A stretch of 64,000 nt of DNA, from positions 1 through 64,000 of the forward strand of contig JYFJ02000861.1 in the NCBI GenBank assembly GCA_000934665.2, written 5' to 3'. Source of the DNA: Catajapyx aquilonaris. Its lineage: Eukaryota. The notes beneath the pieces are model-generated. The model searched no databases, was not told the DNA's origin, and saw only the letters and a list, made by a program, of their open reading frames with translations. Below, in pieces: positions 4,949-64,000 of this stretch (the first letter of the stretch is position 1; each line of letters starts with the position of its first letter). The translations under genes were made by a program, and so were the position numbers.

Positions 4949-5035
4949 GTAAGTGTGTAGAAATGGCTGCCCATCTTTGAGCAACTGCACTTCTGTTAGT
5001 GCTATGGTGTGTTATATTCCAAGTAAATATTTCAG

Positions 5036-5522: not shown

Positions 5523-5725
5523 TGGTGACTGCCCTGAATAAAGCATGGTGTGTGGACCACTTTTCCTGCTCCTTCTGCGATCAGAAACTGAATGCCAAAG
5601 CCAAGTTCTTCGAATATGACATGCGCCCAACTTGCAAGCGATGCTATGAGCGCTTTCCAGCAGAACTGCGTAAACGCTTGCGTAAGATGCATGAGCAGAC
5701 ACCAAGAAAGTCTCCCAGCACCTAG
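5523..5725 (+). CDS. LIMS1: PINCH/LIMS last coding exon, LIM5 and basic C-terminal tail
   Basis: tgtttcag acceptor, phase 1. Encodes [22 protein letters not shown]...[30 protein letters not shown], then TAG. Confidence 0.97.
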
Positions 5726-11835: not shown

Positions 11836-12055
11836 ATGCGGGACTCGACGGCGGCGTGTCCGTGGACCCAGCAGCAGCAGCAGTCGCAGCCGCAGCAGCA
11901 CCAGAGAGACAACAGTGCCAGCAGCACCAGCAGCGGGGGGAGGAGGAGGAGGCCGGAAGATATGGTGGACAGCGTCCGGCTTGTGGTGCTCAAGAGGCCC
12001 CCGGATCAGTCCGGAGGGGGGTTCGGGTTCAGCATCAAGGGCGGGAGAGATGCAG
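11836..12055 (+). CDS. WHRN: Whirlin/dyschronic first coding exon, start of PDZ1 (…VRLVVLKRPPDQSGGGFGFSIKGGRDAG)
   Basis: GFGFSIKGG PDZ carboxylate-binding loop; G|gtagga phase-1 donor. The first in-frame ATG after the stop at 11764 is 11836; an alternative ATG is at 11962. The exon probably starts at 11519 (ttgtgcag), with an upstream non-coding exon ending at 10932 (aag|gtgagt). Confidence 0.85.
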
Positions 12056-12095
12056 GTAGGATCGATGCACCTAACACATGGTCAGCTACATTATA

Positions 12096-12311
12096 CAGGG
12101 GTGTACCCATGTTGACCCCAACTGTTCCGTCCTTGTGCAGTACCACACTTTGCAAACGTATTGAACGCGGGCCGGGCTATTGTTTCTTTTTTTTATTGGA
12201 ATCGATGCACAGTAGGCTTAATAAAACCTGATGGAGACACACGAGTCATGCGAAGGGGCAATAATGTTTGGGCCCCACATTTAGACGGCTGGGTCAACAT
12301 GTCCGCACCTC
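12096..12311. mobile_element. Degenerate Tc1/mariner-type MITE
   Basis: Left end TA|CAGGGGTGTACCCATGTTGACCCC, with an imperfect inverted copy GGGTCAACATGTCCGCACC near 12291-12309. The right terminus is eroded. Confidence 0.4.
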
Positions 12312-14442: not shown

Positions 14443-14484
14443 ACAACAACACCAACACCAACAACAACAGCAGCAGCAGCAGCA

Positions 14485-14542
<58 letters not shown>

Positions 14543-14548
14543 ATAATA

Positions 14549-14619
<71 letters not shown>
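14443..14619. repeat. Compound trinucleotide microsatellite (ACA/CCA)9 (GCA)5 (ACT)19 (AAT)3 (GAT)23
   Basis: Read directly from the sequence. It accounts for the homopolymeric poly-T/D/L/M/H/S/V ORFs in the track. Confidence 0.97.
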
Positions 14620-17600: not shown

Positions 17601-19821
17601 GGATGAGCATGTATTCCATAAATAATATAGTCAATTTCTTTGTATATTATTGGATGTTAAATTTTTGCGCAAATATCTACTCGATGTGAGTTAATTTATT
17701 AAATAGCTGCAATAATAAAGAAGATATCTGTATATGAACATTTTCATAGCTATTTCCATTAGAATTTGCAACGAATTAATGGCTTATGTAACTTGACTCC
17801 GAAAAGCCTTATTGTTTGAAAGCATATAATCGCCATTCAATCCCTAAAACAGCAGCTGGAAAGGTTTTCGAGTGATACCTATCCAACCTGTTGTCCAGGT
17901 CTCAATCCCTGGATTTCCTTACTTGTGCGACTGAGCCTCTGCCAATGGACGGAGAAGAGGATTTTATCCTTCTCTGAATTTCAAATGCAAGGGTGAAGGA
18001 TTTTCTATCGGGAGTATGCGCTTTGTAGATAAGGAGACGGACTTGCAGAGAATTCTTGCTTATATAAAAAAGGACGTTTTAAAAAATGCGGCAGAGTTTG
18101 CTTGGCGGTTGAGATAGATGTGGGTCGGCGATGACGTTTTGCGTTGACTCTGCGGTCGATATTTGTTTCCTACATCGGGCTACATGTCAGGTCATGTTTG
18201 TTGTGCACCCATAAATTGATGTTATGCAACATGCGGTTCTTTCAACCGAGTTCCGAGATATATTGAAGGGATGATGTAATAAAGCGGTAAAAACAATGCA
18301 GCTTTGTGGAAATTGCTTTTGGGCGTATATGGAAAGGCATAGCAATTTTTTTCCAGTAAAAAGTGCTTGTAGAGGAAACAAAGAGGCAGAATCTTTAATA
18401 TCTTGAAAAGTGCTTTATCTTTACGAGCACATTCTATTCCCTTACTGCTGCAATGAAATGAGTCTACTTTTGCTCACACCATGATCTTTACCCAGAGTAA
18501 TGCTAGTGAATTATGTAATCCTTGCATATTAACCATTCAAAGCTGAATAGCGAGGAAACGCTATAGGCTGCGGAACACTGTGGCATTTATCCATGCTGGT
18601 GCACAAAATAGCCCTCTCTCATGTTATTGCGGTCAAGAAACGCCAAGAGTGCCAGGTTTTCACTCAGTTAATTAGTACTGAACTAAGGCGAAGTAGCCTT
18701 GGGCAATGTAAAATTGTACGTCTCTAAAAGGTATACATAGATATTTTAAAAGTAAAACACAAGCTTCTAATGCACATGCGATTCTTGTTATAAATGTGCC
18801 CCAGTTTTACATGTTACCGCGCTTTTTTGGATAGTAATGTCCTAAATGTCAGAGTGGACTGTTATCGTATGATGCTGTTTTCTGTAAGAATACCGCATCG
18901 TTGAAAAAGTGGGAGGCGTAATGCGGGGAGGAGGACAAAGAAAATGAGAAAAACAACCTCCAAGACATCGGCTGTCCGACACATTGCGACAGCTTCATAA
19001 TTCCTACTGAAATGAAGGCCAACCCGATAAAAATTTCAAAATGTTCTTTCATCCACCGCCTTCATTTTATTTTTTTTATCAAGAGAGGCGTGCTTCTGAA
19101 TGCCATTACAGAAATGTATTTTATTTTATGAATCGTCTTGAAAAAGTCTGTTGTACTCCTTCACATTCGCATACGAATAGAAATCCTTCCCACGCACTTG
19201 TCAAAATTTGGAAAGGAAAAATCCTAGGCATGTTTTTTCTAGTAGTTTGGATGCCCCATTGGGAATCTTGTCCCTTTGATGTGTGCACGCTCTGTGAACA
19301 CCCACTTCTTTTTTCTATCTCTAGAATTTCTATGGCTACTTCTCCAATGTCCTGAGGCTACTTGAGAAGTTCTGGGTCTTGGCTTGAAGGTGAAGGTCAA
19401 ATACTGTACAAGATTGGTCGAGAAACATGAAGTATGATAAAAGAGTGCCCCACCTCACATCCTGGACTTAATCCACATCGGATCGGATTTCTACCAAGAT
19501 TCCTTTTTTTTATTATAGGAGAGTAAAGAGACGGGTTTTTATCCCGCTCTGTTTTAAGAGAGCATCATTTGAAGAAAGTGCTGGTGCTGAAATGGAGGAA
19601 GTCTGTCGGCGACTTTCACGGTTCTTTCGGTGATTAAGTTAGAAGTTAGGTCTAAGCCTTAATGCCTTTCTGGCGAAGGGAATGAATGAATTATGGCGCT
19701 CCACTTCTTTCTGTCCAAAAACCTCGCCATCTTTGAAGAGCGCCTCAGTTTGCTTTGTACCCTTGTCAAATTTTTTTTTGTTCCATCCTTTTGTTTGACG
19801 AGCCTCGGTTTCCCATTTCAG

Positions 19822-19961
19822 GAGGGGTTGGCGGTGTGTTCGTGGCCAAAGTTGAAGTTGGGAGTCCTGCCGATCGTTCTGGCCTTCGACCTGGTGACCA
19901 GCTGATGGAGGTCAACGGCATACTCTTCACTGCTGGCATAGGCCATCAGGAAGCCCTGAAA
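19822..19961 (+). CDS. WHRN: Whirlin exon, PDZ1 core (GVGGVFVAKVEVGSPADRSGLRPGDQLMEVNGILFTAGIGHQEALK)
   Basis: cccatttcag acceptor, AAA|gtaggt donor, 140 nt, phase 1 to 0. Contains the GL-x-GD-x-EVNG PDZ motif. Confidence 0.95.
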
Positions 19962-22054
19962 GTAGGTTTCAAACCCAATTTTAGCTCTTTGCGTGGGAAG
20001 AAGGATTGCGTCTGCACGAAAGGTTAAACGATATCAATTTTTATTGCGACACACGGAGGGAACCGTGCTCAATAATTTGCTACGTGAATTTATTTTTCAT
20101 TCAGAAAAACATTGCTGACGCAAGTAATGGAGTAAAATTTGCAATTTTTTTGCGAGCACTTGATTTTGTCCGAACCCATGCTTGCGGCATGTAAGTACCC
20201 AAGGCAGTCCCTTGCGCAGAGCCATAAATTATATGATGTGATCGAAACGCAACCTGGGCTGGCAATTATTATCGGGGTATGGGCTACGAGCCTTGTGGGC
20301 TCCCATTCCGCCATTATTGCACATGTTTGAAAGTGGCGAGTCCGGCAGACAATCGGAAAGTTGGTGTCTGTTGGACGGAGGAAGATATTTTTTGGGTCCA
20401 GAGTAGCATGTGGTGCAGCAGCCAGGAATGAATGAGACAGGAGGAAGCTAAAGTTCTGCCTCCTATATATTGATTGAACTTGAAATAGGAGGACGGGCTG
20501 GCGGCGCCATTCTCCAAAAATGCCCATAAAATCTGCTGCGGGAACGATCAAGCGTATGGCCGAAGCGCAAAATCACCTATGAATAGTTATTCTGCTCCTA
20601 CCTTCGACTTCTTCCTTTCAATGAGAGGGTAGGCAGGCTTGGCTGCACCTTAAATTCGGCCTGGATGGATGTAATAGAGCTGGCTCGTGCCCGGGAAAGT
20701 CGGCTCCATGCCTCTGTGTTATTGTGTTTTTCAGGCCTCATTGCCTGCTTGAACGACAATTGCACCTGATTCGTGCCAGGATCCAATTGAAGCGGTGGTA
20801 ATGATAGGGGCTCGGGTCAAACCGGAGCGACGAATGTCGTGATGAGGTTGGCACATGATACTCTGTCATCAGGATAATCCTGCGTATATATGCCGACCAA
20901 TTTATCGCTATACTGGCCGTGATGATTCATCGTTGCAATTATTTCAAGAGCAAATATTACATGTAGTGAAATGGTGAAAGGGGTGCATGCCACGGATATA
21001 ACATATGACCTATAATATCTCTTTCAGGTCGGCAAAACGATAACTTGAGTGGGTCTATACATGATTGGAGCTGTGAGCTACTTGGCATTATGCTATACAA
21101 ACTATAGGTTGATTATTATTCATGTTTTAGCTTTTTGCGTTTAAATTGGGCCTATGCAATTGTGGGTAGGCTTTTCAGAGTGTCATTATAGACAATTTAA
21201 TCAGTGCCCCGAAAAATTATGCTTGTCGGTTTTGACTCTAGCGCATTAGGGATGCAATAGGTAGTCTACAGTACATTGTTGTTTCATGTGTGTTTCGTGC
21301 ATTTTTGTTCTCGCAATTCTACGTCGTTATACGAGATTTGTTTTTAGTTTTTAAAGAAGACTGGGGCATACAAGTGAGGCTCATTTTTAAACAAATCTGT
21401 GCCACTTTAAAAATATGGCTGAAACCAGGATTACTTAGAAACGTACTATAAAATGGTTGCGTTAATGACTGCTTTCCAAGGATTAGCATTCTCATTACAC
21501 TAGTTTTCAAAAGCAGTAGCCTACTGTAGGGTATAACTTTCTCTAGAGAATAATTACTGCAATTATGAAAGGGTCCTTACTCTACAGGTAACCACGTAAT
21601 CTATTACGCAGGTTATGATATTTAAATTTCATGTTACGCGCAAGGCGTTAGGTTCATGTAAACTTACATATAGGCAGGCGCAGCACGTGAGAGCCATAGA
21701 GGATACTGGAAACTTCCATCATGTTTCATAATTATATGTGTTTCAGTCTGACTGGAAAGATGGGGCCGGACTGGTTGTGTGAAAATGGAGGACGATAGCT
21801 GCAGGCTATTTTGACTTTAATTACGCTGAACAATGGATTTTCCCGTTTAAAAGCATCATCATTGTCTCCTAATATTTTCATTTTACTAAATGAACCCCCT
21901 TGTCCTGAAGCAGGTAAGGTTAAACCCACCCAAAACAAGTAGACTATTATTGGCTTACTTGTGGTATTATCACTAATTATATAGGAGCGGAGTGACGCTT
22001 TGGCCTTACCCAATGTACGCTGCATTTTCCCTCATTGAGAATGACTAATTGGCG

Positions 22055-42500: not shown

Positions 42501-44403
42501 TTATTTTGGCATGTGGGTTAGAGTGATGATGAACCTCGGGACATGTAAAGAGCAATGAGAATGATTGCTGTAACCATCAGATGAGCAGGCCTTTCGAGAT
42601 CCAAATAATCCGCTTGTCCAAAGCCTGTAAAGGGATAGGAGAGGCTGTGATAACTCTGCATGAGGGAGTCGCTTACCAGCCTATTTGCTGTCCCATTAAT
42701 TGCCAATCACGTCGATCAGTTTGGCTTACGGACCCAAGCACAAACGACCCGTATCGATAGCACTTTTCGAACATAAAATCATTCGGCCTACTTTCATTGT
42801 TGACCGTTCCATCCCGACTGATTGAATGACTCGGATTGCATGGCCTGTATTGGAATCAAATACTCTGACTCCCATTTCCACATTGTGTTACACTTCATTA
42901 TTTTTCATTGTATTGCCACCCCTCCCTCCCCCATAAGTTATTTTTCACTGGTGGAGTCAATAACGATTGTTAGTGCTGTATTTGGCAGCGGCATATTTTA
43001 GCACGTGTGAAACTGATCCTACCGAGTATATCGCATAAACCTGGCATTGTTTTGCAGCTCCATGTTTCCCAGTTGGTCTAGGGTGAGTACAGTAGCTGCG
43101 CAGTACTTTGCACTTTGTTATTACCTCACTGACAACGAACATTTCTAATGCTTATTGGCAGTGGAAAACGTGTGGATTCCTATGTAAAGATCTGTTGCGG
43201 TGTATTTATTGCGCATAATTTTCTGCACGTGAGTGTGCTGAAATAATTAACATTGAACATTCCATGCAAATGATTTAAACAGTAATTCGCGGGGTCCTAT
43301 GTGCACTGGCCAATCAATATGATAATTTTATTTTTAAAAATCCCTGTCTATGGTCTCCCCACAAATCCAGCAGGCTCGTCTCTGTGAAGTACGTTAATTA
43401 CTCCACAATACCTTACACAGAAGAGCAACTCTAGCTGCCACGAACGGATCAGTGACTTGAGCTGGCCAGCCCACCCACCCTTTATCCCTTGCCCAGAAAG
43501 TTTGGCAGGCTTCCGACGAAATGAAAGCAGTTTAGAAAAAGGCGGGGGCGTACATCTTACCTTGCAGCCTTGCCGTCAGCCTGGAGATAAACGACCAATA
43601 TCACGGTTTTGTCCTCCGAGCCAATCAATTAGGCCAGCACACCGATTGTGGGCAGGTGAGAAGCATGCCAACGTCACCAGTCGGATTTTCCATAACTTGG
43701 AGCAGTATACACGTAGTCTATAAAGCTGGAGGGCGGCTTTATGGCAGGGTGTAAAAGTATAATGTCCTTTCAGTTGAGTGGATGTGTATCGGAGACACTT
43801 ATGTAAGTTTTGAGCCATGTCTCCTCCTCCTCTCTTCCATCATCAAGTGGCCGACTCCAATTAAGTTGCAGGGCGAGAGAAGGGCTTGCAAAAGCACGCT
43901 TGGCCTGTATTAAATTGTGCGGGGGATCTCCGTCATTCCGCCACTTCCGGATTCCGACGAATAGCCTTTTCCATAGGGGAAGGATGAGGAGGGGGGGGTC
44001 CTTATGAGATGTCCCAGTGCTTAATAGGCATTCATGTCGGAAGATAATGTTGTAGTTGTATGTAATGCTTGGCGGTGAGGGGATTCACGGTGCCTGAGCG
44101 CAGCCATGAATTATTGTGAGAGTCATCACTTTAGAGGCTGGGAGAACTGTGTACAGTGTACACTGTGGGTCAAAATATGCCACTCAATCCAATGATTGTT
44201 GCAGAATAAATCATGTGTCATTTGCCATACTCCTGGCCCAATCGGCATTGTTCTCTGACAACTGAATATGGATGTTTGGTGTGAAGTGCAGCAGACAACC
44301 CCATTAACCCTGGCTTAATAATTTTCCCCTTAGGCATCCAGCCTTCTATATTGACCCGTGAACGGAGGCGGTGGAACTGATAGAATTGATTGGATTTTTG
44401 CAG

Positions 44404-44529
44404 GTGGAACTGGCAGTGGAAAGCGGGCAAAGTCTGGGCCTGATGATCCGTGGCGGTGCAGAATATGCTCTGGGCATCTTCATTACTGGTGTCGATCCAG
44501 ATTCAGTCGCTGAAAAGGCTGGTCTTCAG
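44404..44529 (+). CDS. WHRN: Whirlin exon, PDZ2 first half (VELAVESGQSLGLMIRGGAEYALGIFITGVDPDSVAEKAGLQ)
   Basis: tttttgcag acceptor, CAG|gtatgt donor, 126 nt. The SLGL-x-IRGGAEY-x-LGI-x-ITGVDP signature matches whirlin PDZ2. Confidence 0.97.
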
Positions 44530-45729
44530 GTATGTTACACAGTATATTCAGTTTATGTCTCAACGTTCTACGATGAAACTCTTGGTTGTTATTAGCTCTT
44601 ACCGTAAGTGAAATAAATTAGAAGTTATGCAAACTACTGTAGAAGCTGTAAGCTGGAAAATATGCTTAGAATTTTTCAATAATTTTGCTATTAGTGAGCA
44701 TATCAGTGCCATTTGCATTTTATAAAGGCTTATGAGCTTTAAAACAAACTTGTGGTGTACAGTACATAGTAAAATTAAACTGATATAAATTATTTCGGAA
44801 TACTGTAGCTCATCTCATAATCCTGTAACTAACAAATTACGACAAAACTGAACTAATAAAATGTACTTAATGCTCAGCCATATTTACGAATTCGTGCCCC
44901 TGGGTCCGTAATTTAGATCCGACCCGTAAAGTCATAATCCCTGCTTCCATGAGAAACGACTCGGACCTAATCTCACCCAGACAGCAATGCTGCGTGGAGT
45001 TAACTTTTGCTTGAAAAAAGCACCAATACATATCTCACAAGTGTTTACCCGAGGTAAGATATGGACAGTAGGGCACTAATCTGAATATACATTAGACAGG
45101 GTAACCTTATATCAAGCAAATGTGAATTTTAAAGAATTCTGTCTCGCAGCTAAGTCAGCGCAATTTTTCCGCTGTTGTATTCATGGTTCGCTGCGGGCAA
45201 ATTTCACTGTATACAGGTGTTCAATAACTCCGTTAATTGCTTCAGATATAGCTATCCCTTGACCTATTGTAAAACGAAAGAACAGAACACTTGACATCAT
45301 TGTGTAATTGAGGCTTAATTGCAGCGTGCAATTAAGTTTTTCTTCTGTTAGAAGTGGTGATATAAGGAATATCACCTGCCAGTCAGGGTTGCTGGACGTG
45401 TGGCGTGCAAGATATTCCATATGCCGCCAATGGTAACATAATTTCCGCCGCACGCTCAAATTATGCCCCAATTCCAAATGTTATGTAGAATATTTTGGCG
45501 TATATAATAGACATGCGACAATTAGCGTTATCTGATGGTAGCCAGGGAGTTACTGACCACCCTGTATTATTGGTTGAATTTTGATAACGCTGTAATGTTT
45601 CCGAAATGTCATCATTATTATGCTAAATATGCACGTATCGAAGTGATTTGGTCCATTCAATTCATAATTGAATTGATTCGCGAATTTCACCATGCCGGTG
45701 AGTTAAACATAATTAAATTCAGTTAATTC

Positions 45730-48900: not shown

Positions 48901-51391
48901 TCGCAGATATAAACTGACAAGGGCTGACGCATTGATGTCGAAGGACGAGGTGGTTGCCCCCCCCAGAAGGTCCCTTCAAGATATTCAACAGCTTCGTGCT
49001 TTTCTCCGGATTTCGTCAGCACTCCGAATGAGCCAGACCGCTTTAGGTAATGCGTCAACATCACGACCAAGGGTATTTCCGTATTCCGACACACCAGGAT
49101 AGGGCTATAGAGAGTGGCAGTTTAAATGCGTAGGTTTGAAACAATGTCAAAATATTCTCGCGTGATTGATGAAATCAGTGAACTCGGCAAAAATAATTTA
49201 TGCCACGAAATTCAGAATGAAATCTAGAAAGTAAGAGGTAGACTAATCGATGGCGAATTTCCGCTTGGGTCGTCTAGGAAACTCGCTTCCTGATACAACA
49301 TCGATCCCATGCAATGATTTGATGGCGTTATAAACCTTGGGATTCCCTCGCCGATATTCCGTTTTTAGTGAAATGCCTCCCCCTTTTCCCTCCCATTTTT
49401 ACTGGATCGTATTATACTTCATGCCCGTATTATCTCGAGATTGAAACATATATTTGCCTGAGGCTTTCCAGGTTCGTATTAAGTCGTTGGCAGAAATTCT
49501 CCAGCGCCGTTTATTTCTCCTGACCGATAGTAGATCGATTTTTAATGATTAGAGATTTATGGCTGACATTTTCCGTCATGAAAATTCGTCGTTGTTGCCA
49601 TTTTTAGGCAGTAAAATTAATTTTCATTTGTACAGGATCAGTGGTTGTCTTATTGAAATGTGAACGCTATGTAATAAATCGGTGTGGGTCACTGCTCATT
49701 GGAGCTTATATTAGTTGGATATGTTATCGGAATAGGTTTTTTTTGTAACACAATAATTTGATGTGACAACGTGACATCACTTTGAAGTTACGTAATTACT
49801 TTCGAAAATTAAAGCCTCGAGGCCAACCGTGCCTCTGAAATGTTCTCAATTTTATTCAAATTTTTTGCTGAACGTCTTCTGCCTTTAACTCCCCGAATTA
49901 GTGCTCCAGGCGTTGCCCAGGGGCTGATCATTGCATTCTTCGTCACGAAACCTATCCATCATGGGCGTACGCAGGGAAGGCTTTTCCAAGCATGAGCCCA
50001 AATCCAAATTCACTAACATTGTCCAGTACGTCCGAGGTCCTCCCTCCTCCACCTTTCCAAAATGGACTATCTTTCGCCTTTATACACACTTTTGAGCTAT
50101 GTTGAGCCAGGATGTGGAAGGGGGCCAGGAAAGAGAGGATGCTCCAGAATCTAGAACATCCTCCAAAATGAATATTAAATCCAAACCACAGCCACAGCCA
50201 TGATCCTGTCATTGAAATCATGTTGAAGGCTTCTCAGCCATATAGGATGTTCCTACTCTGATCCCATTTTTTAAACTTTGCAAATGGGGCTTAAATCTTG
50301 GCTCAGAAAGTAGCCTACTGGCGTATATCTTACTGTGCTTGAGGCATAGCACGACTGGCACTTTATAGTTATAATGTATAAAATCACGGTAAAATATAGA
50401 AGATTGTCGATATTAGTTCAAGATTTACACTGCTTACCAGATTGTCCAGATATCATGAGCTCATAACATTATTCTTTCTTTGTTGAATACACTCCACACG
50501 ATACACTGAACAAAGGTTTGCTTGCCTTTCTTTGGAATTATATCAAATTTTACTATCACTTACAGTGCAACTTTCAGATATGCTGGTTTAGTGGTTTGAT
50601 ACTGTACTATTACAGGGAATAATTATTGTGATAGCTTACTGGGTGTTGTTGAGTATTACATAATTCATGTGATTTATTTGTCTGAACTGAGAGTTTGACG
50701 AGTGAGTAGCCGTCACGCAGTCTAGGCTGATCATCAAGAGTGTTGTGCCAGGAATCGCTTTGGATGCTTGAGGCTTTAAATGAAAATAAACTGTACTATA
50801 CTTTTTTAAGGAATTTAAATCTAGAAATTTTCACAAACTACTTTTTGCACGTCATTGCGCGTTATTTTCTCGTCGGTCTTTGTTTGACTGAATGTTACTA
50901 ACGCCTTAAATCGCCTTAAATGCAGTTGCACTGTAGAATTTATTATACAGGCTATAGTTACCTTCTCTATAGTCTGGAGGCTAGGAATGTTTGAGTGCCT
51001 TTGCAAAGTGCTGTTCTTGCCCTTGGACCCCCGAATCAAGAGCCATCCTGGCAGTAAATTAACGGCCTGCTGGCGAACCTTATTTCGCCTAGGTTACGCA
51101 GATGAGGAGCCAAGATTTGCACCATTAGGATGGCCAATCCCGGCAGGGTACAAATTTCCTGTGGGGCTCTTTGCTTAATTAAAACACATTGATCCGACCA
51201 CGTGGAGTGCACTGCATGTAACATGTCGGGTCTAATTCTTCTTGTGTGAGTTGTGTATATTAGCTACTGTATAGTTTCACTGCCTCAGTTTCCCCCCAAT
51301 TTGTTGATCTGTCGATGCAGCCGGGCAACAATATCCAGATGATAATCACGTTGTGCTTGCGTCGGACCTGACCGAATTACGACTCTTTCAG

Positions 51392-51561
51392 ATGGGCGAC
51401 CAGATCATCGAAGTGAACGACCAGAGCTTTCTGGAGGTGACACACGACCAGGCTGTGCAAGTGCTCAAGTTTTGCAAGAGGATGAGACTGACTGTGCTGG
51501 ATGTGGGCAAGATCCCCCATTCCCTTACTGCCTACGAACCCATGGGAAGGCATAGTCCCAG
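51392..51561 (+). CDS. WHRN: Whirlin exon, PDZ2 second half (MGDQIIEVNDQSFLEVTHDQAVQVLKFCKRMRLTVLDVGKIPHS...)
   Basis: ctctttcag acceptor, AG|gtgagc donor, 170 nt, phase 0 to 2. DVG(K/R)(I/L)PH follows PDZ2, as in whirlin. Confidence 0.96.
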
Positions 51562-51926
51562 GTGAGCAAATCTTTTTAAAATATTTTAAAATATTTTAAT
51601 ATTTTAACTGTTTTATTAATCAATTAGTGTCGTGAGATTAAGACGCATTTAAAGCCAAACGTATATAGGTCGTGAATGAAATCAGATTGTTCTGTACACA
51701 ACCTGGACCTGTTGTGTGCCAAATATATGGTACAAATCTAATCTCCAAGTAAGGGGTCTAGACACGACACAGCATATTATCCCGGTCTAGACGCTACATG
51801 GCCCGGGTGTCACATTAGCACTAATTTGGTCAAAGAGGGGAGGTCCCCACAGGAGTATGGTGGAAGGAATGGTTCCAGCTGGCTGGGTTTTACACTCATG
51901 CGACATTTATTTGGCTAAATTTACAG

Positions 51927-56200: not shown

Positions 56201-58807
56201 ACACCTGATACTGTATTTAACTGATATAATGGAATATAATGGAAAAGGATTAAAATGTAGAAGGTGACCGCTGCAGCATTGAGCTTATTGTTAGACCTAC
56301 ATGTTCATTACTTTTGCAATGATACGTTAAGGACTGGATTGAATGAAACATTTTACAGTAGTTCATAACTTTCAATAATTTTGAAGATCTATACCAGGGA
56401 GGTTTGACTTTTGTATGTTCGTCACCCTCACAATGAACAGAGGAGATCAATTTTTTTGCAGCTTGAATGTGTCATTATGTGGGGCTATTGTATTTTTCAG
56501 TACCGGTATTTTTAATAAGACTGTAGCATTAAAAATAGGTGCCCTACATTTCTAACGTAAGTTGTCGATTTAGTGGCCAATGAGATGTCATCAGAAAAAC
56601 CGACTGTACGAATGTTAAGGACATCACAAAGTGAAGCCATTTATTGCACTTAATCTACCGTAGTGCAAAATTGATTTGCACCAAATTACTCCATATACAG
56701 CTGTAGAAGGTCACTAAAAGTCAGTATTGATGGACGTCTAAAATTATTCCGCTTGTGTGACTCGCATGGGGCTTAACCCATACGCTGCCTGTCATACATC
56801 GGCAGGAAAGCAGTAAACAATATTTATGAAACTACAGTTTTCCCCGCAAATTTTGTCATCCAGTTCTAGCTCTGCTGTATAGAGAGCGACCACCTTACTT
56901 TAAGGTTACTGCAACAGGCCCTAATTCTGCAATAAATACTAATTAACAAAATTACAATAAGTAGTGGCGTAGACGCAGCATGATGGTACATTGTCCCTCA
57001 TCGTCTTATAGGTCCGTAGCCCTGTGCGTAGTAGGCCCCGGAAGCCCTCTCCTTACTCTGGTGCTGTGGCTCCGAGTAGTTCTCATCTCGAACCCCAAGG
57101 CTTCGGTACCCCAAGCGACGATTCAGGGGTCGATTTGGCCAATGGCAGCTCTAGGGGCAGTAGGTGAGCCCTTAGATCCTTTTATATACTCATCTACTAT
57201 CATCATTTCTAGTACTTCCTCGCTATACTTACTGCATCCCCCTTTTGTTCTTTTTCTCGTGCTGTAGTGGCAGATATTTCGGAGGGATTTAGGAATTCAG
57301 CGCTATCGCTCGTTTGTTGGTATTTTTTACGCAGGCACGCCTCTTTCAAATAGCAGGTGACCTCAGTAGACTGCAGGCCTTTTCTTCCATACCGCTATTT
57401 AAAGTATGATAGCCTGCTTAAAATTTTTAAATAAACCAGTAGCTGCTCGAAGACTATAAATCGCTCCGTATATGTAGATGTACTGTACACGTAGATTATG
57501 AACCCTTCTTTCATTTTTCTGGACTATAGATTAGAAGAAATATTATTAGTGCTTGTAGATGAGCAGGTTATACCAACCCCCGTACAGTACACATTCAATT
57601 AATTATTGTGATGTTTGTACATTTTTGGAGCCGGATTCACTGAGGGGAAATACGTCACGGTTCACGCTTGCATAACGAGCGATTGTACCAGCCGGGGCCT
57701 AAATACAGTAGTTACACTACATGCGCCGCTTCAGAGTGATTTCTGCAGAGATGAGAACAGAAATAGCGAATTCCTTTTTAAAATTATTTCCCATTAAATC
57801 GACTTATTCGGCTTAACATTGCTAACACGAAATTATTGCCTCAGTAATGTCAACCGTGCGGATAGTAGCTACTAAGTATCTATTTTGTATTACTGATTAG
57901 AAATAGTATTAATGCGAATAATTTGTTACGCTCTTCATATGAAACCATCATGTTCGAGCTCATATCTCGAGCCACTCCAATGAGTAACACCGTCCAATGC
58001 TCCTCCAGCAGTGCAAGGCATTACGGAAATGCTGTAATATTTGGAGTTACCAACTTTCATTACTCTCATATTCAAACACGCCCATTATGTGTTATGCCCA
58101 ATCGACATCATATCGTTCCTAGTGAATTGTGACTAAACGACTACGCAATAATGAAAGTGACCACATATTTCAAATTGTACATAGATGCCATTTTTCGATA
58201 TTTAAAACTACCAAAATGGTTTTTAAAGCCTCAGTTTATGCCTTACACTTACATTACTTTGAATGTTGGCAATTTTTTCTGGTAATTTATAGTGGAATAT
58301 TGCCTTTTGGGGTGGTCTACCAGGTAGGCCTACAATGCTACATCATGTGCAGGAACGGGGCATGTTCAAATCTATCCTCATGTAATAAGTTGGTAACGAA
58401 AATTAACTCTGCCGCCACACGCGTTAAGATATATATTATTAAACTGCACATCGACTCGATTTATTACGCGATGTTGCAAATGGGCCGTCACCGGAACCAC
58501 AGAGGCATTTCCGACTTTGATCGTCAATCATGTTACACAGATAAGCCTGCCAGCTCTTCAACTTGTTGCCGCCCGAGGGCCAAAAAAAAACTCTTCTTCC
58601 TAGTGAGTTTCATCAGTTTGCTCGCATATGAAGTACGCCTGCGAGAGCACTGGGTGGGGTAAAAATGTAAGGAAAAAAACTAGCAAATCCGATTTTCTCC
58701 CCGAGGTGAATCCGAGCCCTGTTGCATTGAAGAGACCAAAAAAAAATGCCGTTTCCCTCTGGAGAGTTCCAATTGACATTGGTTTTGTGCTCTGCCCGCT
58801 ATTTCAG

Positions 58808-58928
58808 AAGGCGCAGTAAAGAATCCCGACCATCCGAGTCTAAAGGTAGCCAAAGCCAATGGTCTCCTCTCACCATTACCTCTGATTTGGCGCTCTCTTT
58901 CGACGAAGAGATTGATTCTGCACATCAG
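58808..58928 (+). CDS. WHRN: Probable whirlin linker exon (RRSKESRPSESKGSQSQWSPLTITSDLALSFDEEIDSAHQ)
   Basis: atttcag acceptor (NAGNAG alternative at 58811) and CAG|gtactt donor. Entered in phase 2 it is open and exits in phase 0, in frame with the next exon. Confidence 0.7.
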
Positions 58929-59365
58929 GTACTTTACTTGTATGTCTCTCTCACTTGTACGTAACTAAACCTCGTTATCCTTTCTCTCTCTCTCTTTTCT
59001 CTCCTTTTTGATGTTTACACCTTCAAACAAAATAAGGGTTAAGTTGTTCCCTGCTGCTGCTGGCTTCCGCTCAATCTGAGTGCTTCACTCTCGTGTTCTT
59101 CGGTGTTCGTGTGTGGTGGGTGTTGCATGGCAGCTTGTTCGGTGTGTAAATGTTCTCTGTTTTAGCTGGGTCCTTTTTGGCGACGGTTTTCCACCCCACA
59201 TACTCATATTTTTTGATGTTCTGAAGAGAAGCGTTTTGAAGCACTCTCAGAATTTTTTTAGACCACGGATCGAAGTGTCGGAGTGAAGCGCTGACATATT
59301 TGGAGTGTTACGCTTCATTTGTGCAGTTTCTGTTGTCTTACATTGCTTGTGCACCGGAACTTTAG

Positions 59366-59590
59366 GAGTATGCTGCGGCCAGGGCGGGACGAATGCCAAC
59401 ATCAGTGTCGGCGTCGGCCAACGTTGGAGGCATCCCCCTCGACGAAGGCCCTTCTCCGATTCATGGACGAACCAGCAGAGGACCCATCGGAAGCCCCTTG
59501 TCCAGCAGGACGCCTCCTCCACATTCTATGCACAGAGAACCAGCCTACCAAACCTACGGAACCGTTGATGCGGGAGACTCCGAAGCCCTT
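59366..59590 (+). CDS. WHRN: Probable whirlin Pro/Ser-rich linker exon (EYAAARAGRMPTSVSASANVGGIPLDEGPSP...DAGDSEAL)
   Basis: ctttag acceptor, CTT|gtaagt donor, 225 nt, phase 0 to 0. GC-rich island with Pro/Ser-rich content, as expected between HHD2 and PDZ3. Confidence 0.75.
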
Positions 59591-60620
59591 GTAAGTATAT
59601 CCCATAATTATTAATAAATAGCAGTATTTGTCGAAAAAGCCATCAGCACTCGCCCAAGGTTTTGTAGCTCCAGGACCCATTTGTCCAAAACATTTCTACT
59701 AATATATGCTATTGTGAACCTTACATGGGCAATGGGCATATCCCCTTACATTCTGTAGTCATAATCCTGCTGCGGAGTAATTAAATTATCTGCAACGACC
59801 TTAAAGTCAATTGCACAATGGAAGAAAACCTAATGCTACGGGAGATAACGTTTTGTTGGGCGGTTTTAAAGAAGGCAGAAGGAGAAAAAAAAAGAATAAT
59901 CTAAAAGTGGTTGTTGTTGTGCCTTCCGGGATATCCGCCCCGCTGGCGAACCAGGTCAAAGGGAGAAGTAATTGTGGTAGGTGGAGTTTGTAGGCATATC
60001 TCTTCTTTTCTTTCTCTATCCTCTTCCGCGGTTATATTCATACGAGCGCTCAACTTGGCGAACTAGATCCGCAGTCGGTGTGGCAACTTGCGGAAAAAGT
60101 GATTGGATTCGATATCGCTCAAGCTTACCACCTCTTTTTTTTTGTCTTTGCATTTCCATTGGGGAAGTTTTATGGGTTGTTGGTATTAAATTACTTGCAT
60201 CCCTTGCGTGACTGCTGCTCCCCTTTTTATTTGTTCTGGAAGTTCATTAATGCCCTTACATGTTAGTTACACGCCTGACTGTACTCTCCAGGCGTTATGT
60301 TTTGCTGCAATTTATATACTTGTGATGAATTATTCATCAGAATGCAAAGCTGTAATTTCTCAAGGAGATATGGACAAGATGCTTATCAATTAACCCCAAC
60401 ACAGCAGTCTGCGCCATAAGAATGCTAGTTCATTACAGGCATAATTATCCCATTACTCCCCCGTTATCACACGTGACACGTCAACATTCGCACAGAAGTA
60501 AAGCACTGTCACAGATGCCCCCCACATCTATTAGGGGCTGGAGGAAATGTAAAACCCGGGTAGAAAATAACAGTCTGTATCACCGAAACAGTTTGTTAAA
60601 AGATACTGGTCACAATGAAG

Positions 60621-60824
60621 TCACAGCTTGTCTTGGACTGCTTTTCCAAGCTCTTCTGCAGCTTTGAAGATGTCGCAGGTCGTTCTCTTGGAGGTGTCGG
60701 AAGACATTCCGACACCGTCGTCGTAATAGTCCTTGGGCGGTTCTGCCGGGTAGGCTTTCCTGGAGTAGATTTTGGGTCGCGGGATCCTGACCCTCTTGCT
60801 GTCTTCCGTCAACCACGACTCCAT
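60621..60824 (-). CDS. Candidate nested antisense small protein (67 aa), or terminal exon of an unknown gene
   Basis: tcatttcag acceptor (exon start 60833) 9 nt before an AGT ATG G start. About 47 of 67 codons end in G/C by hand count, against AT-richer flanks. Minus-strand AATAAA at 60231-60226. Confidence 0.55.
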   Translation of the reverse strand: MESWLTEDSKRVRIPRPKIYSRKAYPAEPPKDYYDDGVGMSSDTSKRTTCDIFKAAEELGKAVQDKL

Positions 60825-63800
60825 ACTGATGAACTGAAATGACCAACCATATAATATTAAGCATGCATGGCAGATTCACAAACGAATATTCTGTGGCACT
60901 GTAGACAGCGAGGGAATATTGCTTTTTTTTCTGTTGGTATATCCATGCAGCGTACCCGTATATTGTAGTTGGAAATGAAGTCGGATGTTCTTTACGGTCG
61001 TGTTATCATAACAAGCGCTTTGTGAACGCCATTACACATGGAAGGTACTGGTTTTAAACCGATATCAAAGGGATGATCAAATGAGATAGATATTTGAAAT
61101 CTGCGCTGGGGCTATAGGGAAGCGTTAAGTAATGAATATGGAACTCAGGATCGATTTGCCCGTGAACCCAAACCTGCTGGTAATTTCAGAGCGTACTGTA
61201 CTTTGACCCAGACATCGTGACCGGCGGGACAGGACTAACCCTGCTGTATCGCACAAGCCAGAAAACCAGCTGCCCTTCCGTGTCTGGGTGAATTGATTCC
61301 AGACCTAAGACATTATTCTGGAGACGGCCGAACATAGTCAACACCGGCGTGACTAGCCCTGCCTTCTTGTATATGCATGGGGTCAATCCCTAAGGGAGAC
61401 TTTAACGGGAATTCTCGTTACACCCGATTCACTTTCCCTCCAGACCCTTCTGTCCAAAGAAACGGCAAACAAAGAACGCTTGTATATCGAGGTCGGCGAG
61501 GTCACCGTGTCCTTTCATGAACTGGTGATGGGATTTCATTCATAAACTGCGCAGTTTCTTTTCCGCGGTGTCTGCGCGTGTTTTTATCCCCTTAATTATC
61601 TCACGCAATGGTCAACACGATCCTAAGATCACTTTTGGTCACCATCTCCGGTCGAAAACGTGGACTGCTAGTTAGTACAATGCATGCTTCGAGAGCGATT
61701 CTCAAGAGGCCTGTCCGTCAGCCTTGAGGAGATGAATAGTTTATTCTTAACGAGTCCTTTTTACCTGAGTAATGGTTGTATTCAGAATTTATGCAAGCAA
61801 GGCTCTCGCAAGACACACTTTATGGTCAGTTTGATGTCTTCATGTTTCTTTCTTTAATGCTATCTCCTCAAGGCTGTTACACATTTGCGGATAACGGACT
61901 GGCAGAGAATGCTTCCCTTATTTGAACATGACGTGCTTTTATCAACGATGTGTCACGTACGGTATGACGACAACACTACGATCATCATTTCCTTCTGCCT
62001 GCTTCAAAAAAAAAAACATCCATTAGCCGCAGTAACAGACGGTTCAAAACAACAGATTAGGTGCGAATGGTATTTTGCAACCCGCGACGGCACCTTTCAA
62101 AGTCATTTAAAGCCGCTTACTCTCTCGCTCCAAACAAGTTTAGCGCTAAAGACATTTAGCGCCATTGTAAGGCCTGTAACCAATGGCGGCTAATGCGATT
62201 ACCCAACAGGTTCCCGTGTCTTTGATGTGGCCTGACATTGACCCTCCCAGAACTAAACTTCCCAACTAGTTTCAGAATCCCGTCCAGGATAACCTAGAAT
62301 AATTAAGTCCCACGACCATAAATCATTACCGCAGCCTATGATATTTTTGGCCCAAAATGTCACCACCCTGCAAGCTGATGCGGTAATACTTCCGTGATTT
62401 AGGCCCATTATGAGCAGCTTTAGAGTGAATCCCAGCCGTTTTCACCGAGTGGTAAAAGGAGACTATATACGGGCGCAATAAAGAATTTCATGCCAGCTGC
62501 TAATTCCCTAATAAATGCTGCATTATATATCACTGATTCAATTATTTTTAGCTGGCAATAGCATGTCTTATGCAGCAGTGACATGGGCGTGTCTAGCCCA
62601 AAATTGCAATCTAGAGTTAGAAGGGAAAAGCCGGCCAGACCTGTCTTTCACGCCCTTCAAGGCTCATGAAAACATTTCCGGCCACCAAATCCGGAGCGGG
62701 ATGGCAAAGGGACCAGAAACAGGTCCTGGTCCGCCTTCTGAATAATGCGTCGTCATATACGTGAGAACCTCCTTTTGCCCCACTAACTTGCAATTTAGGC
62801 AGGAGGGTAGGCTAATAATTTAAATTGCGTTTAGAAGGGGTGGGGGGGGGGCGATGACGGTCTTCCTTGTCACAGTGTGCTCACCATGCCGGGGAAATTG
62901 TACTGTACATGGAAAAGGATGAAAAAGCGCGTGACTTGCCTGCTGCTTCCGTAAGCCCCTGATAGAAGCCGTATGACACCTGACGTGTGACTACACGGTT
63001 TTGAGGGTGCAAATTTTTGCGCAATGTGGGTCTTGTCTACATGACAAATTGGCTGACGGGCCAGGATTTGTTCTGGTTTGTGTGCTGTGCCGGATTAATA
63101 TATTTCACTGCTGGGTGTGCACTGATAAGTTTGCTATTGTGCTATAAGAGCGGCGGCCTACCTGGGTAGTCACTTGTGTGGACTAATGATGCGAAATGAC
63201 AGGCACATCAAAATGGGGGAATTAATATCTGCCTAAATTCCCAGCACGACATCAGGGGTGTTTGCCAATATCCGAACTTTCACCAAAAATGCACCTGCTG
63301 CAAGGCTGAAATAGGCCGTGCTTAGACATGGATTAATTTCAGCCAGCAAAACTGTGACGTAATTAGAGGGTGTCCGTAGAAGGAGAAACAACGGTTTTTG
63401 ATGTCACACGGATTCACGGTCAGCCGGTGGAATAAAGAAAGCGCAAATGGTGTCATTTTCGTCGTAAAGTTGCTTCAAAATTATTACCACCGTACTTTGG
63501 CGAGGGTTTCGCAAAATTGTAATATCAATTTGTGTGTTTGTCCAGGTATATGGCAGGTATTTGGCCTATCCGGTACAATACAACTACAAGGAAGTGTGGT
63601 CATCCGACATGCGCTTTTACGGCCCCGCTGTGCACACTTGCAGACTTTTAGGACTTGAACAGTGGAATCGGGGGGTAATCTTGGAATTGCCTAATAAATT
63701 CTAGCCAGCCTTTTCAGCATGGCATAGGCGAGTTAGGGAAAGGATCACGACTGCCCAGAGGCTTGTAGGAAGTGGCAGCCATGCTCTTTTACCTGAGCAA

Positions 63801-64000
63801 CAGATGTTGGAAGCCGGCAAATGAAAACGGTCCCGTTACATCAGCGGAGCACTAACTAACCAACAAATCCGCCTTTTTTTTGTCTCTCCCGTCATCAATT
63901 TGAGCGTAATGGAGCTATTTTGCTGCCCTTTGTTGAGGGGGGCGGAGGAGGGCTCTTATAGGAGAAAGTCGTGAGGCCCTTCCCCATCCGTGACTAATGT

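What the first reader, a model, noticed from the sequence alone, without database searches (positions are those of the whole stretch)
60226..60833. Unrecognised 67-aa protein gene nested antisense in a whirlin intron
Seen: minus-strand acceptor, strong start context, ~70% G/C at third positions (hand count), stop at 60621 and AATAAA ~390 nt downstream. The peptide MESWLTEDSKRVRIPRPKIYSRKAYPAEPPKDYYDDGVGMSSDTSKRTTCDIFKAAEELGKAVQDKL has a basic Pro-rich start, a PPKDY motif and a probable amphipathic C-terminal helix. Candidate upstream donors are at 61174 (cag|gtttgg) and 61765 (cag|gtaaaa). It matches no family I recognise. Inference: an unannotated microprotein, or the last exon of a longer antisense gene, since the frame is open back to the acceptor.
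Basis: partly seen in the sequence, partly recalled or inferred. Interest (0 to 1): 0.7.

Follow-up and report, generated by a model that had tools for sequence, protein, structure and literature searches.

The report
Conserved arthropod microprotein gene, function unknown
The 67-codon reading frame is a real, spliced, single-copy gene for a small protein that is conserved across insects and crustaceans but has never been given a name or a function.

Summary
The minus-strand ORF 60824..60621 gives exactly the peptide quoted. It has an AG acceptor 9 nt before the ATG, A at -3 and G at +4, GC3 of 47/67 (70%) and AATAAA 390 nt after the stop.

It is far more than a chance ORF. It has full-length relatives of 58-100 aa: 20 by single sequence, 253 clusters by profile. 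These occur in beetles, thrips, moths, bugs, cockroach, stick insect, flies, flea, ants, bees, wasps, crabs and an amphipod. Nearly all are labelled only "hypothetical" or "uncharacterized".

All share M-E-S-W-L, an invariant I-P-R-P-K core, usually P-x-E-P-P-K-D-Y, and a C-terminal helix ending K-L-stop. In five closely related metagenome loci only this frame is open, and pN/pS is 0.17.

A contig of an independent run covers 60290-60836 and departs from the genome at the predicted acceptor.

The "last exon of a longer gene" reading is rejected. Nesting in a whirlin-like intron is likely but not shown.

I found no Pfam family, solved structure or paper for it. The model is disordered apart from one helix. 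It most likely docks onto partner proteins through short motifs; the partner is unknown.

The parts
60621..60824 (-). Coding sequence of the 67-aa microprotein (P0001), stop TGA at 60623-60621
   Evidence: Translation. Homologues. Single copy in the window.
60226..60833 (-). Coding (last) exon: 9 nt of 5'UTR, the CDS and a 3'UTR of up to about 395 nt. The 3' end is not determined (about 60290 or just below 60226).
   Evidence: A contig of run X5 covers 60290-60836 at 100%. AATAAA at 60231-60226 and TATAAA at 60316-60311. Contigs cannot show RNA ends.
60834..60850 (-). Splice acceptor (AG 60835-60834) with pyrimidine-rich tract; end of a 5'UTR intron longer than 3.1 kb, or a join to a leader from elsewhere
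   Evidence: The X5 contig runs on into 36 unlike letters beyond 60836, with 3 ambiguous letters (cag). The 30 printed letters are absent from the window. An acceptor lies 0-8 nt before the ATG in 6 of 6 orthologous loci.
60768..60824 (-). Motif 1, residues 1-19: MESWL...KRVRIPRPK(I/F); I14-P15-R16-P17-K18 are invariant
   Evidence: Alignments A1, A2, A3. pLDDT 77 for residues 11-20 without secondary structure.
60726..60752 (-). Motif 2, residues 25-33: Y-P-A-E-P-P-K-D-Y
   Evidence: P26, E28, P29, P30, D32 and Y33 are at least 90% conserved in A3. The motif is absent in the hymenopteran subfamily.
60624..60701 (-). C-terminal amphipathic helix, residues 42-67, ending ...Q-D-K-L-stop
   Evidence: AlphaFold2 helix 42-66, pLDDT about 90. 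T56, E57, L59, R60, K66 and L67 are at least 90% conserved in A3; this copy itself has A56 and G60. Nearly all members stop right after K-L.
58863..58926 (+). Exon of the plus-strand host gene (its 5' limit is not determined)
   Evidence: An X5 contig joins 58926 to 59364, skipping 437 nt with GT..AG ends. The DNA run X1 is colinear with the window there.
59364..59590 (+). Next exon of the plus-strand host gene, Pro/Ser-rich, ending at donor GTAAGT at 59591. The microprotein gene lies 0.6-1.2 kb beyond this donor on the other strand.
   Evidence: The exon end is inferred from the open frame and donor string; the contig itself stops at 59544.
51308..51562 (+). Open frame holding a PDZ-domain exon of the host gene (frame limits, not exon limits)
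   Evidence: Pfam PDZ 4.5e-07. The best solved-structure match is KIAA1526 protein PDZ, E 4.9e-12. That KIAA1526 is whirlin is recalled, not from a call.

Best explanation
This is a real, expressed, single-copy gene on the minus strand. Its whole coding sequence (67 codons, 60824..60621) sits in its last exon, and a 5'UTR intron ends 9 nt before the ATG. The product is an unannotated member of a stand-alone microprotein family found across insects and crustaceans, which exists in databases only as 'hypothetical' or 'uncharacterized' proteins. The protein is largely disordered and built of three conserved modules joined by variable linkers. Module 1 is an N-terminal MESWL...R-I-P-R-P-K-[FIMY] motif. 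Module 2 is a P-x-E-P-P-[KR]-D-Y motif. Module 3 is an 18-25-residue amphipathic helix that runs to a fixed C-terminus, [ED]-K-L-stop. Shown here: the gene, its frame, its splicing at the acceptor, purifying selection, family breadth and module architecture. Inferred: it works as a protein by docking these modules onto one or more larger partner proteins, as a small regulator, adaptor or subunit of a complex. It is not an enzyme, a membrane protein or a secreted peptide, since it has no hydrophobic segment, no signal-like N-terminus and no fold. The partner is unknown. The gene probably lies inside an intron of a whirlin-like PDZ-scaffold gene on the other strand.
For: ORF, context and composition. 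Homology: 20 of 20 scored candidates at E<=0.01, 49-58% identity over 100% of the query, lengths 61-103 aa. A profile found 63 representatives at E<=1e-3 (39 at <=1e-10) among 1.84 billion. A profile also found 253 clusters at E<=1e-3 among 4234 candidates, of which 120 were listed. Named members come from Coleoptera, Thysanoptera, Lepidoptera, Hemiptera, Blattodea, Phasmatodea, Diptera, Siphonaptera, Hymenoptera, crabs and an amphipod. Conservation: 28 invariant columns among 21 sequences, starting at Met1 and ending at Leu67. IPRPK is invariant in 39 and in 112 sequences. Linker length between modules 1 and 2 ranges from about 5 to about 90 residues. Selection: in 5 closely related loci the sense frame has no stop and pN/pS is 0.17 summed over 10 pairs. 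The other five frames all carry stops. 11 of 17 variable sites are third positions. Gene structure: an acceptor lies 8 nt (5 loci) or 0 nt (1 locus) before the ATG. Transcript: a 583-nt contig from a second sample covers 60290-60836 and then diverges at the acceptor. Another contig of the same run carries a GT..AG-bounded 437-nt skip that the DNA run lacks, so this run behaves like cDNA. Structure: residues 1-41 have no secondary structure, and helix 42-66 has pLDDT about 90. Stand-alone status: only 3 longer proteins were found.
Against: No experiment or annotation says what any member does. There is no Pfam family, no significant solved-structure relative (best E 2.7) and no Atlas neighbour. 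The kind of run X5 is not on record, and contigs cannot show strand, ends or level. The minus strand is inferred from the AG at the break. The upstream exon was not found, so an ATG further upstream cannot be excluded for this species; the 30 visible upstream letters carry no in-frame stop by my reading. This copy departs from near-invariant insect residues: one extra residue before K10, I19 for F, A56 for T, G60-K61 for R-R. Some functional drift is therefore possible. Two of the 63 profile hits (P0057, P0060) are long repeat proteins that match only by IPRP-like repeats, so the short core alone is not specific. The docking mechanism is inference from architecture only.
Confidence: 0.85

Rival explanations
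1. The ORF is the last coding exon of a longer minus-strand gene whose upstream coding exons lie beyond the acceptor.
For: The frame is open from the acceptor to the ATG. By my reading, the 30 visible letters of the upstream piece have no in-frame stop. Some database models carry N-terminal extensions of 10-140 aa.
Against: The extensions share no similarity with each other, and conservation begins exactly at Met1. RefSeq-type models of 61-82 aa start at the conserved Met. The acceptor-to-ATG distance is 9, 8 or 0 nt, so the phase is not kept. A search among proteins of 182-2000 aa gave 3 hits, none with a shared extra domain.
Confidence: 0.04
2. It is a chance ORF, a non-coding RNA exon, a transposon fragment or a plus-strand whirlin exon.
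For: ORFs of this size are common in the window: 351 frames of 60 aa or more. A plus-strand frame, 60600-60842, is also open.
Against: There are full-length homologues across arthropod orders. The sense frame has pN/pS 0.17, while the nearly open antisense frame has 6.6 and a stop. There is no transposase or other Pfam match on either strand here. It is single copy in the window, and the word depth of the DNA contig over it is flat. The break at 60833-60836 fits a minus-strand AG, not a plus-strand GT.
Confidence: 0.01
3. Functional variant A: the protein is a nuclear regulator. K-R-V-R within module 1 would act as a classical monopartite nuclear localisation signal, and the helix would contact a nuclear partner.
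For: K10-R11-V12-R13 fits the recalled K-[KR]-x-[KR] consensus and is kept in most non-dipteran insects.
Against: Flies have K-Q-L-R and crabs K-P-M-R at these positions, while the I-P-R-P-K core stays invariant. The constrained element is therefore not the basic cluster. No localisation data exist.
Confidence: 0.15
4. Functional variant B: the fixed C-terminus [ED]-K-L-COOH is a class III PDZ ligand. The microprotein would bind a PDZ scaffold, possibly the whirlin-like host gene's own product.
For: K66 and L67 are at least 90% conserved and the stop follows directly in nearly all members. The tail fits the recalled [DE]-x-hydrophobic-COOH pattern. The gene lies beside or within a PDZ-scaffold gene.
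Against: The tail is predicted with high confidence as the end of an alpha-helix, whereas PDZ ligands bind as extended strands. Linkage to whirlin could not be checked in any other species; the flanks of L002, L005 and L001 show no PDZ exon. Neighbourhood alone is weak evidence.
Confidence: 0.05

Closest known systems
Unnamed family of arthropod 'uncharacterized protein LOC...' or 'hypothetical protein' entries, e.g. Thrips palmi LOC117646947, Nilaparvata lugens LOC111064100, Harpegnathos saltator LOC109504587, Eriocheir sinensis LOC127004789 (names as given)
   Same: Same length class, same start (MESWL) and end (K-L-stop), same IPRPK core, PPKDY motif and C-terminal helix. 49-58% identity over the whole protein.
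   Different: This copy has one extra residue before K10. It also has I for F after the core, A for T and G-K for R-R in the helix. It is absent from the searched protein collection. None of the relatives has a described function.
Characterised insect smORF genes (tarsal-less/pri, sarcolamban, hemotin, purriato). Names are recalled; papers seen as a search listing.
   Same: Fewer than 100 codons, conserved beyond one order, overlooked by annotation, and acting as proteins or peptides on larger partners.
   Different: No sequence similarity was found to anything named. Unlike sarcolamban or hemotin (recalled as transmembrane), this protein has no hydrophobic segment. Unlike pri it is monocistronic and 67 aa long.
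CFAP43 (cilia- and flagella-associated protein 43), residues 1134-1197 of chain 8j07_i6
   Same: The only solved chain that aligns over motif 1, K-D-Y and the helix together.
   Different: E = 2.7 for the database, so not significant. It is a 1665-aa protein and there is no evidence of common descent. Kept only as a lead.
Whirlin / PDZD7-type PDZ scaffold (host gene, not a relative of the microprotein)
   Same: Shares the locus on the opposite strand. PDZ exons at 19737-20024 and 51308-51562, the latter best matching KIAA1526 PDZ at E 4.9e-12.
   Different: A different gene on the other strand with no sequence relationship.

Membership tests
Unnamed pancrustacean MESWL-IPRPK-PPKDY microprotein family | Stand-alone protein of about 58-100 aa that starts at M-[ED]-[ST]-W-L | tested here: met
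   67 aa starting MESWL. M1, E2, W4 and L5 are at least 90% conserved in 112 sequences.
Unnamed pancrustacean MESWL-IPRPK-PPKDY microprotein family | Invariant I-P-R-P-K core preceded by R | tested here: met
   R13-I14-P15-R16-P17-K18 are present. The core is invariant in A2 (39 sequences) and A3 (112 sequences).
Unnamed pancrustacean MESWL-IPRPK-PPKDY microprotein family | P-x-E-P-P-[KR]-D-Y motif (lost in Hymenoptera) | tested here: met
   P26-A-E-P-P-K-D-Y33.
Unnamed pancrustacean MESWL-IPRPK-PPKDY microprotein family | C-terminal helix K-A-T-E-x-L-R-R-x-x-Q-[ED]-K-L followed directly by the stop | tested here: met
   K54-A-A-E-E-L-G-K-A-V-Q-D-K-L67-stop, with three substitutions at near-invariant positions. 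Helix predicted at 42-66.
Unnamed pancrustacean MESWL-IPRPK-PPKDY microprotein family | Whole CDS in one exon, with a splice acceptor a few nt before the ATG | tested here: met
   Window: 9 nt. L001, L002, L003, L005 and L006: 8 nt. L004: 0 nt. The acceptor is used in the X5 contig.
Classical monopartite NLS (K-[KR]-x-[KR], recalled consensus) | Basic tetrapeptide conserved across the family | tested here: inconclusive
   KRVR is present here and in most insects, but it is KQLR in flies and KPMR in crabs. Import was not tested.
PP1-docking RVxF motif ([RK]-x(0,1)-[VIL]-{P}-[FW], recalled consensus) | Aromatic F/W two residues after the V/I | tested here: not met
   K-R-V-R-I has I, not F/W, at that position throughout the family.
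Class III PDZ ligand ([DE]-x-hydrophobic-COOH, recalled consensus) | Free C-terminal D/E-x-L and an extended conformation on binding | tested here: inconclusive
   The sequence pattern is met (D65-K66-L67-COOH). The tail is predicted helical. Binding is not testable here, because a whole PDZ domain of the host would have to be joined from separate exons.
Whirlin family (host gene on the plus strand) | PDZ domains most similar to whirlin's | tested here: met
   51308-51562 best matches the KIAA1526 PDZ at E 4.9e-12. That KIAA1526 is whirlin is recalled. 19737-20024 matches PDZ domains in general, with KIAA1526 at 1.6e-05 and not on top.
Whirlin family (host gene on the plus strand) | Third, C-terminal PDZ domain encoded downstream of the microprotein gene (needed to prove nesting) | tested here: inconclusive
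   None of the 41 plus-strand frames of 28 aa or more in 60838-63971 reached a Pfam cut-off. The exon may lie beyond the window.
Transposable-element fragment | Multi-copy sequence or transposase/RT similarity | tested here: not met
   Single tblastn hit in the window. No Pfam hit. No tandem repeats in 58000-64000.

The most novel reading that the evidence does not exclude
The microprotein may be a dedicated partner of the PDZ scaffold in whose intron it sits. Its strictly conserved free C-terminus [ED]-K-L would dock into a PDZ domain of whirlin, while the IPRPK and PPKDY motifs recruit a third protein. A host gene and its nested antisense gene would then encode two parts of one complex, conserved across insects and crustaceans. 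The evidence does not exclude this, but the only support is the fixed C-terminus and the neighbourhood in this single genome.
Probability: 0.05. Interest if true: 0.75.

Novelty: new member of a known kind. Interest (0 to 1): 0.45.

Why it matters
Conserved microproteins are still under-annotated. This one is missing from the searched protein collection for this genome. Elsewhere it exists only as unnamed models, some with spurious N-terminal extensions or misleading automatic labels; one 81-aa member is called 'C2 domain-containing protein 3'.

The family is old, shared by insects and malacostracan crustaceans, and tightly constrained. It has exact N- and C-termini, an invariant five-residue core and pN/pS of 0.17. 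Yet it has no Pfam entry, no structure, and no mention in the open literature that I could find by motif strings.

That makes it a clean candidate for a functional study in Drosophila or Tribolium, and for a new family entry. For genome annotation it gives a simple rule: a single coding exon, an acceptor 0-9 nt before MESWL, and a stop after K-L.

Tried and rejected
**Genome and earlier notes**
- The whole genome is not held.
- Earlier-findings look-ups by place, sequence and words gave nothing.

**Similarity searches that found nothing usable**
- ESM Atlas with P0001 and with P0006 gave no usable neighbour; the best score was 0.76.
- The PDB profile search gave only CFAP43 (E 2.7) and Rop (E 8), both not significant.
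- Rfam found 0 matches on the whole window.
- Tandem Repeats Finder found 0 arrays in 58000-64000.
- The bacterial-type promoter/terminator scan of 60100-60700 is irrelevant for a eukaryote; it found 1 site against 1.3 expected.

**Sequencing runs**
- No RNA holder is listed for 60200-61200. Four of the five holders may be the source sample.
- The upstream exon was not found: the 30 printed letters of the loose end have 0 matches in the window with up to 3 mismatches.

**Synteny in other species**
- tblastx of window 40001-64000 against all 7 loci matched only the microprotein ORF, in L001, L002, L003, L005 and L006.
- A Pfam scan of 104 flank frames of L002, L005 and L001 gave no hit above a curated cut-off; one weak Transposase_1 match appeared in L001. 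Whether the nesting is conserved could not be tested.
- L007 matches only residues 10-42 at 42% identity and was not counted as an orthologue.

**Self-association**
- A two-copy complex job gave no verdict: score 0.00 against a mark of 0.32, and the alignment was not used. This is no evidence either way.
- A whirlin-PDZ complex was not attempted. A whole PDZ domain would have to be joined from separate exons.

**Literature**
- 'MESWL' and 'RIPRPKF' matched 0 papers.
- Six motif strings matched 3 papers, 1 listed, with an unrelated title.
- 'whirlin / nested gene / intron / arthropod' gave nothing relevant in the 10 papers listed.
- For the Tribolium smORF paper PMC13670568 I saw the outline and abstract. 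Its 4 held supplement files have no RIPRPK or PPKDY, and one unrelated MESWL ORF.
- For the Drosophila smORF paper PMC11674832, the 1 held supplement file has none of 4 strings.
- bioRxiv supplements are closed, and subscription journals are not searched, so a description there could have been missed.

**Calls that returned errors**
- asked for more than 60 ids and was re-sent.
- One search failed because alignment A2 was too divergent for the locus scan; it was re-sent with A1.
Full report
**1. The observation**

The minus strand of 60621-60875 is an 84-codon stop-to-stop frame.

Just upstream lies ...ggtcatttcag|ttcatcagtATGG. That is a pyrimidine-rich tract, an AG at 60835-60834, nine exon bases, then an ATG with A at -3 and G at +4.

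G+C at codon positions 1, 2 and 3 is 47.8, 44.8 and 70.1% (47 of 67). The surrounding 4 kb is 45.7% and the putative 3'UTR 40.5%.

AATAAA is at 60231-60226, 390 nt after the stop. A TATAAA is at 60316-60311.

All items of the observation are therefore confirmed. An ORF of this size is not remarkable in itself, since the window has 351 stop-to-stop frames of 60 aa or more. The case rests on what follows.

**2. It has full-length relatives in many arthropods**

- A single-sequence search returned 20 proteins, all 20 scored candidates at E<=0.01. They are 61-103 aa, 49-58% identical, and each covers 100% of the query.
- Their alignment has 28 invariant columns. It begins at Met1 (M-E-S-W-L) and ends at the last residue (K-L). 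N-terminal extensions in some models are unrelated to one another.
- A profile search of 1.84 billion cluster representatives found 63 proteins at E<=1e-3 and 39 at <=1e-10. Two of the 63 (P0057, 356 aa; P0060, 818 aa) are long repeat proteins hit through repeated IPRP-like words. I regard them as false.
- A profile search of the 5.8-billion collection found 253 clusters at E<=1e-3 among 4234 candidates, with the best 120 listed.

Members that carry a name come from these groups:

| Group | Taxa named in the calls |
|---|---|
| Beetles | Cryptolaemus, Brassicogethes, Ignelater, Nicrophorus, Asbolus, Trypoxylus, Dendroctonus, Popillia |
| Thrips | Frankliniella, Thrips, Megalurothrips |
| Moths and butterflies | Pieris, Papilio, Spodoptera, Helicoverpa, Danaus, Arctia, Leptosia |
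| Bugs | Homalodisca, Nilaparvata, Lycorma, Kerria |
| Other insects | a cockroach (Periplaneta), a stick insect (Timema), a flea (Ctenocephalides) |
| Flies | Hermetia, Pseudolycoriella, Corethrella |
| Ants, bees and wasps | Harpegnathos, Anthophora, Odynerus, Ampulex, Microctonus, Cotesia |
| Crabs | Eriocheir, Scylla |
| Amphipod | Trinorchestia |

Every label is 'hypothetical', 'uncharacterized' or 'unnamed', apart from two automatic labels: 'C2 domain-containing protein 3' on an 81-aa protein and 'Paired domain-containing protein' on a 144-aa model. Nothing in the alignment supports either.

No returned protein is more than 58% identical to P0001. This genome's copy is therefore absent from that collection.

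**3. It is a stand-alone protein, not the tail of a longer one**

- A search restricted to proteins of 182-2000 aa gave only three hits among the 8000 candidates scored.
- The first is a 204-aa Timema model whose last 74 residues are the family member, behind an unrelated extension.
- The second is a 198-aa open-ended frame from a short contig.
- The third is a 184-aa crustacean-like protein in which motifs 1 and 2 are separated by about 90 residues.
- RefSeq-type models of 61, 64 and 82 aa begin at the conserved Met.
- In six orthologous loci recovered from metagenome contigs, an acceptor (...ttgcag or ...tttcag) lies 8 nt (L001, L002, L003, L005, L006) or 0 nt (L004) before the ATG. The window has 9 nt.
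- Distances of 9, 8 and 0 nt do not keep a reading phase, so the segment between acceptor and ATG is 5'UTR.

**4. This frame is the one under selection**

The five very similar loci are 93-99% identical in the CDS. Pairwise dN/dS runs from 0 to 0.32.

Summed over the 10 pairs, the sense frame has pS 0.094, pN 0.016 and pN/pS 0.17, with no stop. All five other frames contain stops in every locus. The nearly open antisense frame has pN/pS 6.6. Eleven of the 17 variable sites are third codon positions.

The numbers are small (222 nt). They agree with the deep protein conservation.

**5. Transcript evidence**

No run on record as RNA holds the stretch (see Tried and rejected). Run X5 comes from a second sample and its kind is not recorded. 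It holds two contigs here.

- One contig (583 nt) matches 60290-60836 without a difference and then runs on for 36 letters unlike the genome. The last three matching letters (c-a-g) can belong to either side, so the break is at 60833-60836, which is the predicted acceptor.
- The other contig joins 58926 to 59364, skipping 437 nt bounded by GT..AG on the plus strand. The DNA run X1 is colinear with the window there.

X5 thus behaves like cDNA. The 30 printed letters of the 36 have no match anywhere in the window with up to three mismatches. The upstream exon therefore lies more than 3.1 kb away, beyond the window end, or is a leader from elsewhere. The candidate donors at 61174 and 61765 are not the ones used.

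Contigs cannot show strand, ends or abundance. The strand is inferred from the AG, and the 3' end (about 60290 or beyond 60226) stays open.

**6. Anatomy of the protein**

Across 112 sequences, I14-P15-R16-P17-K18 are invariant. The following are at least 90% conserved: M1, E2, W4, L5, R13, F19, P26, E28, P29, P30, D32, Y33, T56, E57, L59, R60, K66 and L67.

Conservation falls into three islands:

- residues 1-19;
- residues 25-33;
- the last roughly 17 residues.

Linkers between the islands vary from about 5 to about 90 residues. Hymenoptera lack island 2 and have ...G-S-G-N-S-V-R-R-S-N-S... in its place. A few divergent members lack the helix.

AlphaFold2 with the 112-sequence alignment gives mean pLDDT 70.8. 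Residues 1-41 have no secondary structure, with pLDDT 77 over residues 11-20. There is one helix, 42-66, with pLDDT about 90.

There is no hydrophobic segment and no cysteine pattern. This is the architecture of a disordered protein that works through short docking motifs plus one amphipathic helix. The exact conservation of both chain ends suggests that the termini themselves are recognised. That much is inference.

I checked some recalled motif definitions against the alignment:

| Recalled motif | Result in this family |
|---|---|
| PP1 RVxF | Not met: I where F/W is required |
| Classical NLS K-[KR]-x-[KR] | Met here and in most insects, but not in flies or crabs |
| Class III PDZ-ligand tail [DE]-x-hydrophobic-COOH | Pattern met, but the tail is predicted helical |

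None of these identifies a partner.

**7. Surroundings**

On the plus strand:

- LIM-domain exons lie at 3783-5722.
- PDZ exons lie at 19737-20024 and 51308-51562, with a weak one at 44362-44592.
- The 51308-51562 frame best matches the PDZ of 'KIAA1526 protein' (E 4.9e-12), which I recall to be whirlin.
- The 19737-20024 frame matches PDZ domains generally.
- The spliced exons 58863-58926 and 59364-59590 encode a Pro/Ser-rich stretch. They end at GTAAGT at 59591 with the frame open.

The plus-strand gene therefore very probably continues downstream, and the microprotein gene would lie in that intron on the other strand. No plus-strand exon was recognisable in 60838-63971 (41 frames scanned), so the nesting is inferred, not shown.

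Whether the arrangement is conserved could not be tested. The 10-kb flanks of L002 and the shorter flanks of L005 and L001 show nothing recognisable.

**8. What is known**

- There is no Pfam family.
- There is no significant solved-structure relative. The CFAP43 alignment at E 2.7 is a curiosity only.
- There is no Atlas neighbour.
- Motif strings occur in no relevant open-access paper.
- Two smORF catalogues do not list it in the supplements I could search.

The family therefore appears to be undescribed, within the limits of those searches.

**9. Verdict**

The gene is real.

The finding is an unannotated member of a widespread but unnamed and unstudied microprotein family. It is useful for annotation and a good candidate for functional work, but it is not a new kind of biological system.

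- Confidence that it is a functional stand-alone protein-coding gene: about 0.95.
- Confidence that it acts by motif- and helix-mediated docking to partner proteins: about 0.6.
- Combined statement as written: 0.85, weighted toward the shown parts.

Noticed in passing
window 3783-5722 (+): Three open frames with LIM domains (PF00412; best E 9.3e-31, three stretches in 4355-4957). This looks like the 3' part of a LIM-domain gene upstream of the PDZ gene.
   Followed up: no
window 19737-20024, 44362-44592, 51308-51562 (+): PDZ-domain exons of a whirlin-like scaffold gene spread over more than 30 kb. The last one best matches the KIAA1526 PDZ. The 154-aa frame 11767-12228 has no solved relative.
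   Followed up: partly
window 58863-58926 and 59364-59590 (+): Two plus-strand exons are joined in a contig of run X5 (437-nt GT..AG intron). They encode a Pro/Ser-rich, probably disordered stretch that ends at a GTAAGT donor.
   Followed up: partly
window 60836 onward, upstream of the acceptor (-): The transcript contig carries only 36 further letters 5' of the acceptor, and the 30 printed ones are absent from the window. A short first exon far upstream and a spliced leader are both possible.
   Followed up: partly
window 14346-14687 (-): An open frame made of long Ser and Val runs (simple trinucleotide repeat), seen in the ORF list.
   Followed up: no
window 61437: The DNA run X1 reads G where the window has C, in one contig at depth 34.9. 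This is a single difference between the assembly and a run that may be its source.
   Followed up: no
Proteins P0040-P0052, P0065 (Hymenoptera): The hymenopteran branch of the family has lost the PPKDY motif. It carries G-S-G-N-S-V-R-R-S-N-S instead, which contains an R-R-x-S pattern (recalled as a basophilic kinase site). Motif 1 and the helix are kept.
   Followed up: no
Proteins P0024, P0080, P0073 (crustacean-like): Longer forms (106-184 aa) start M-D-[AS]-L-[LI] and have about 90 residues between the IPRPK and PPKDY motifs, with no clear C-terminal helix. The modules can be spaced far apart.
   Followed up: no
L001 5786-6040 (+): Weak mariner-type Transposase_1 fragment (E 3.8e-4, below the curated cut-off) about 3 kb downstream of the orthologous microprotein gene.
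   Followed up: no
PDB chain 8j07_i6 residues 1134-1197: Human CFAP43 aligns over the whole family profile (D-x-x-R-x-x-I-P-x-P-x-F ... K-D-Y ... helix), but at E 2.7, which is not significant.
   Followed up: no
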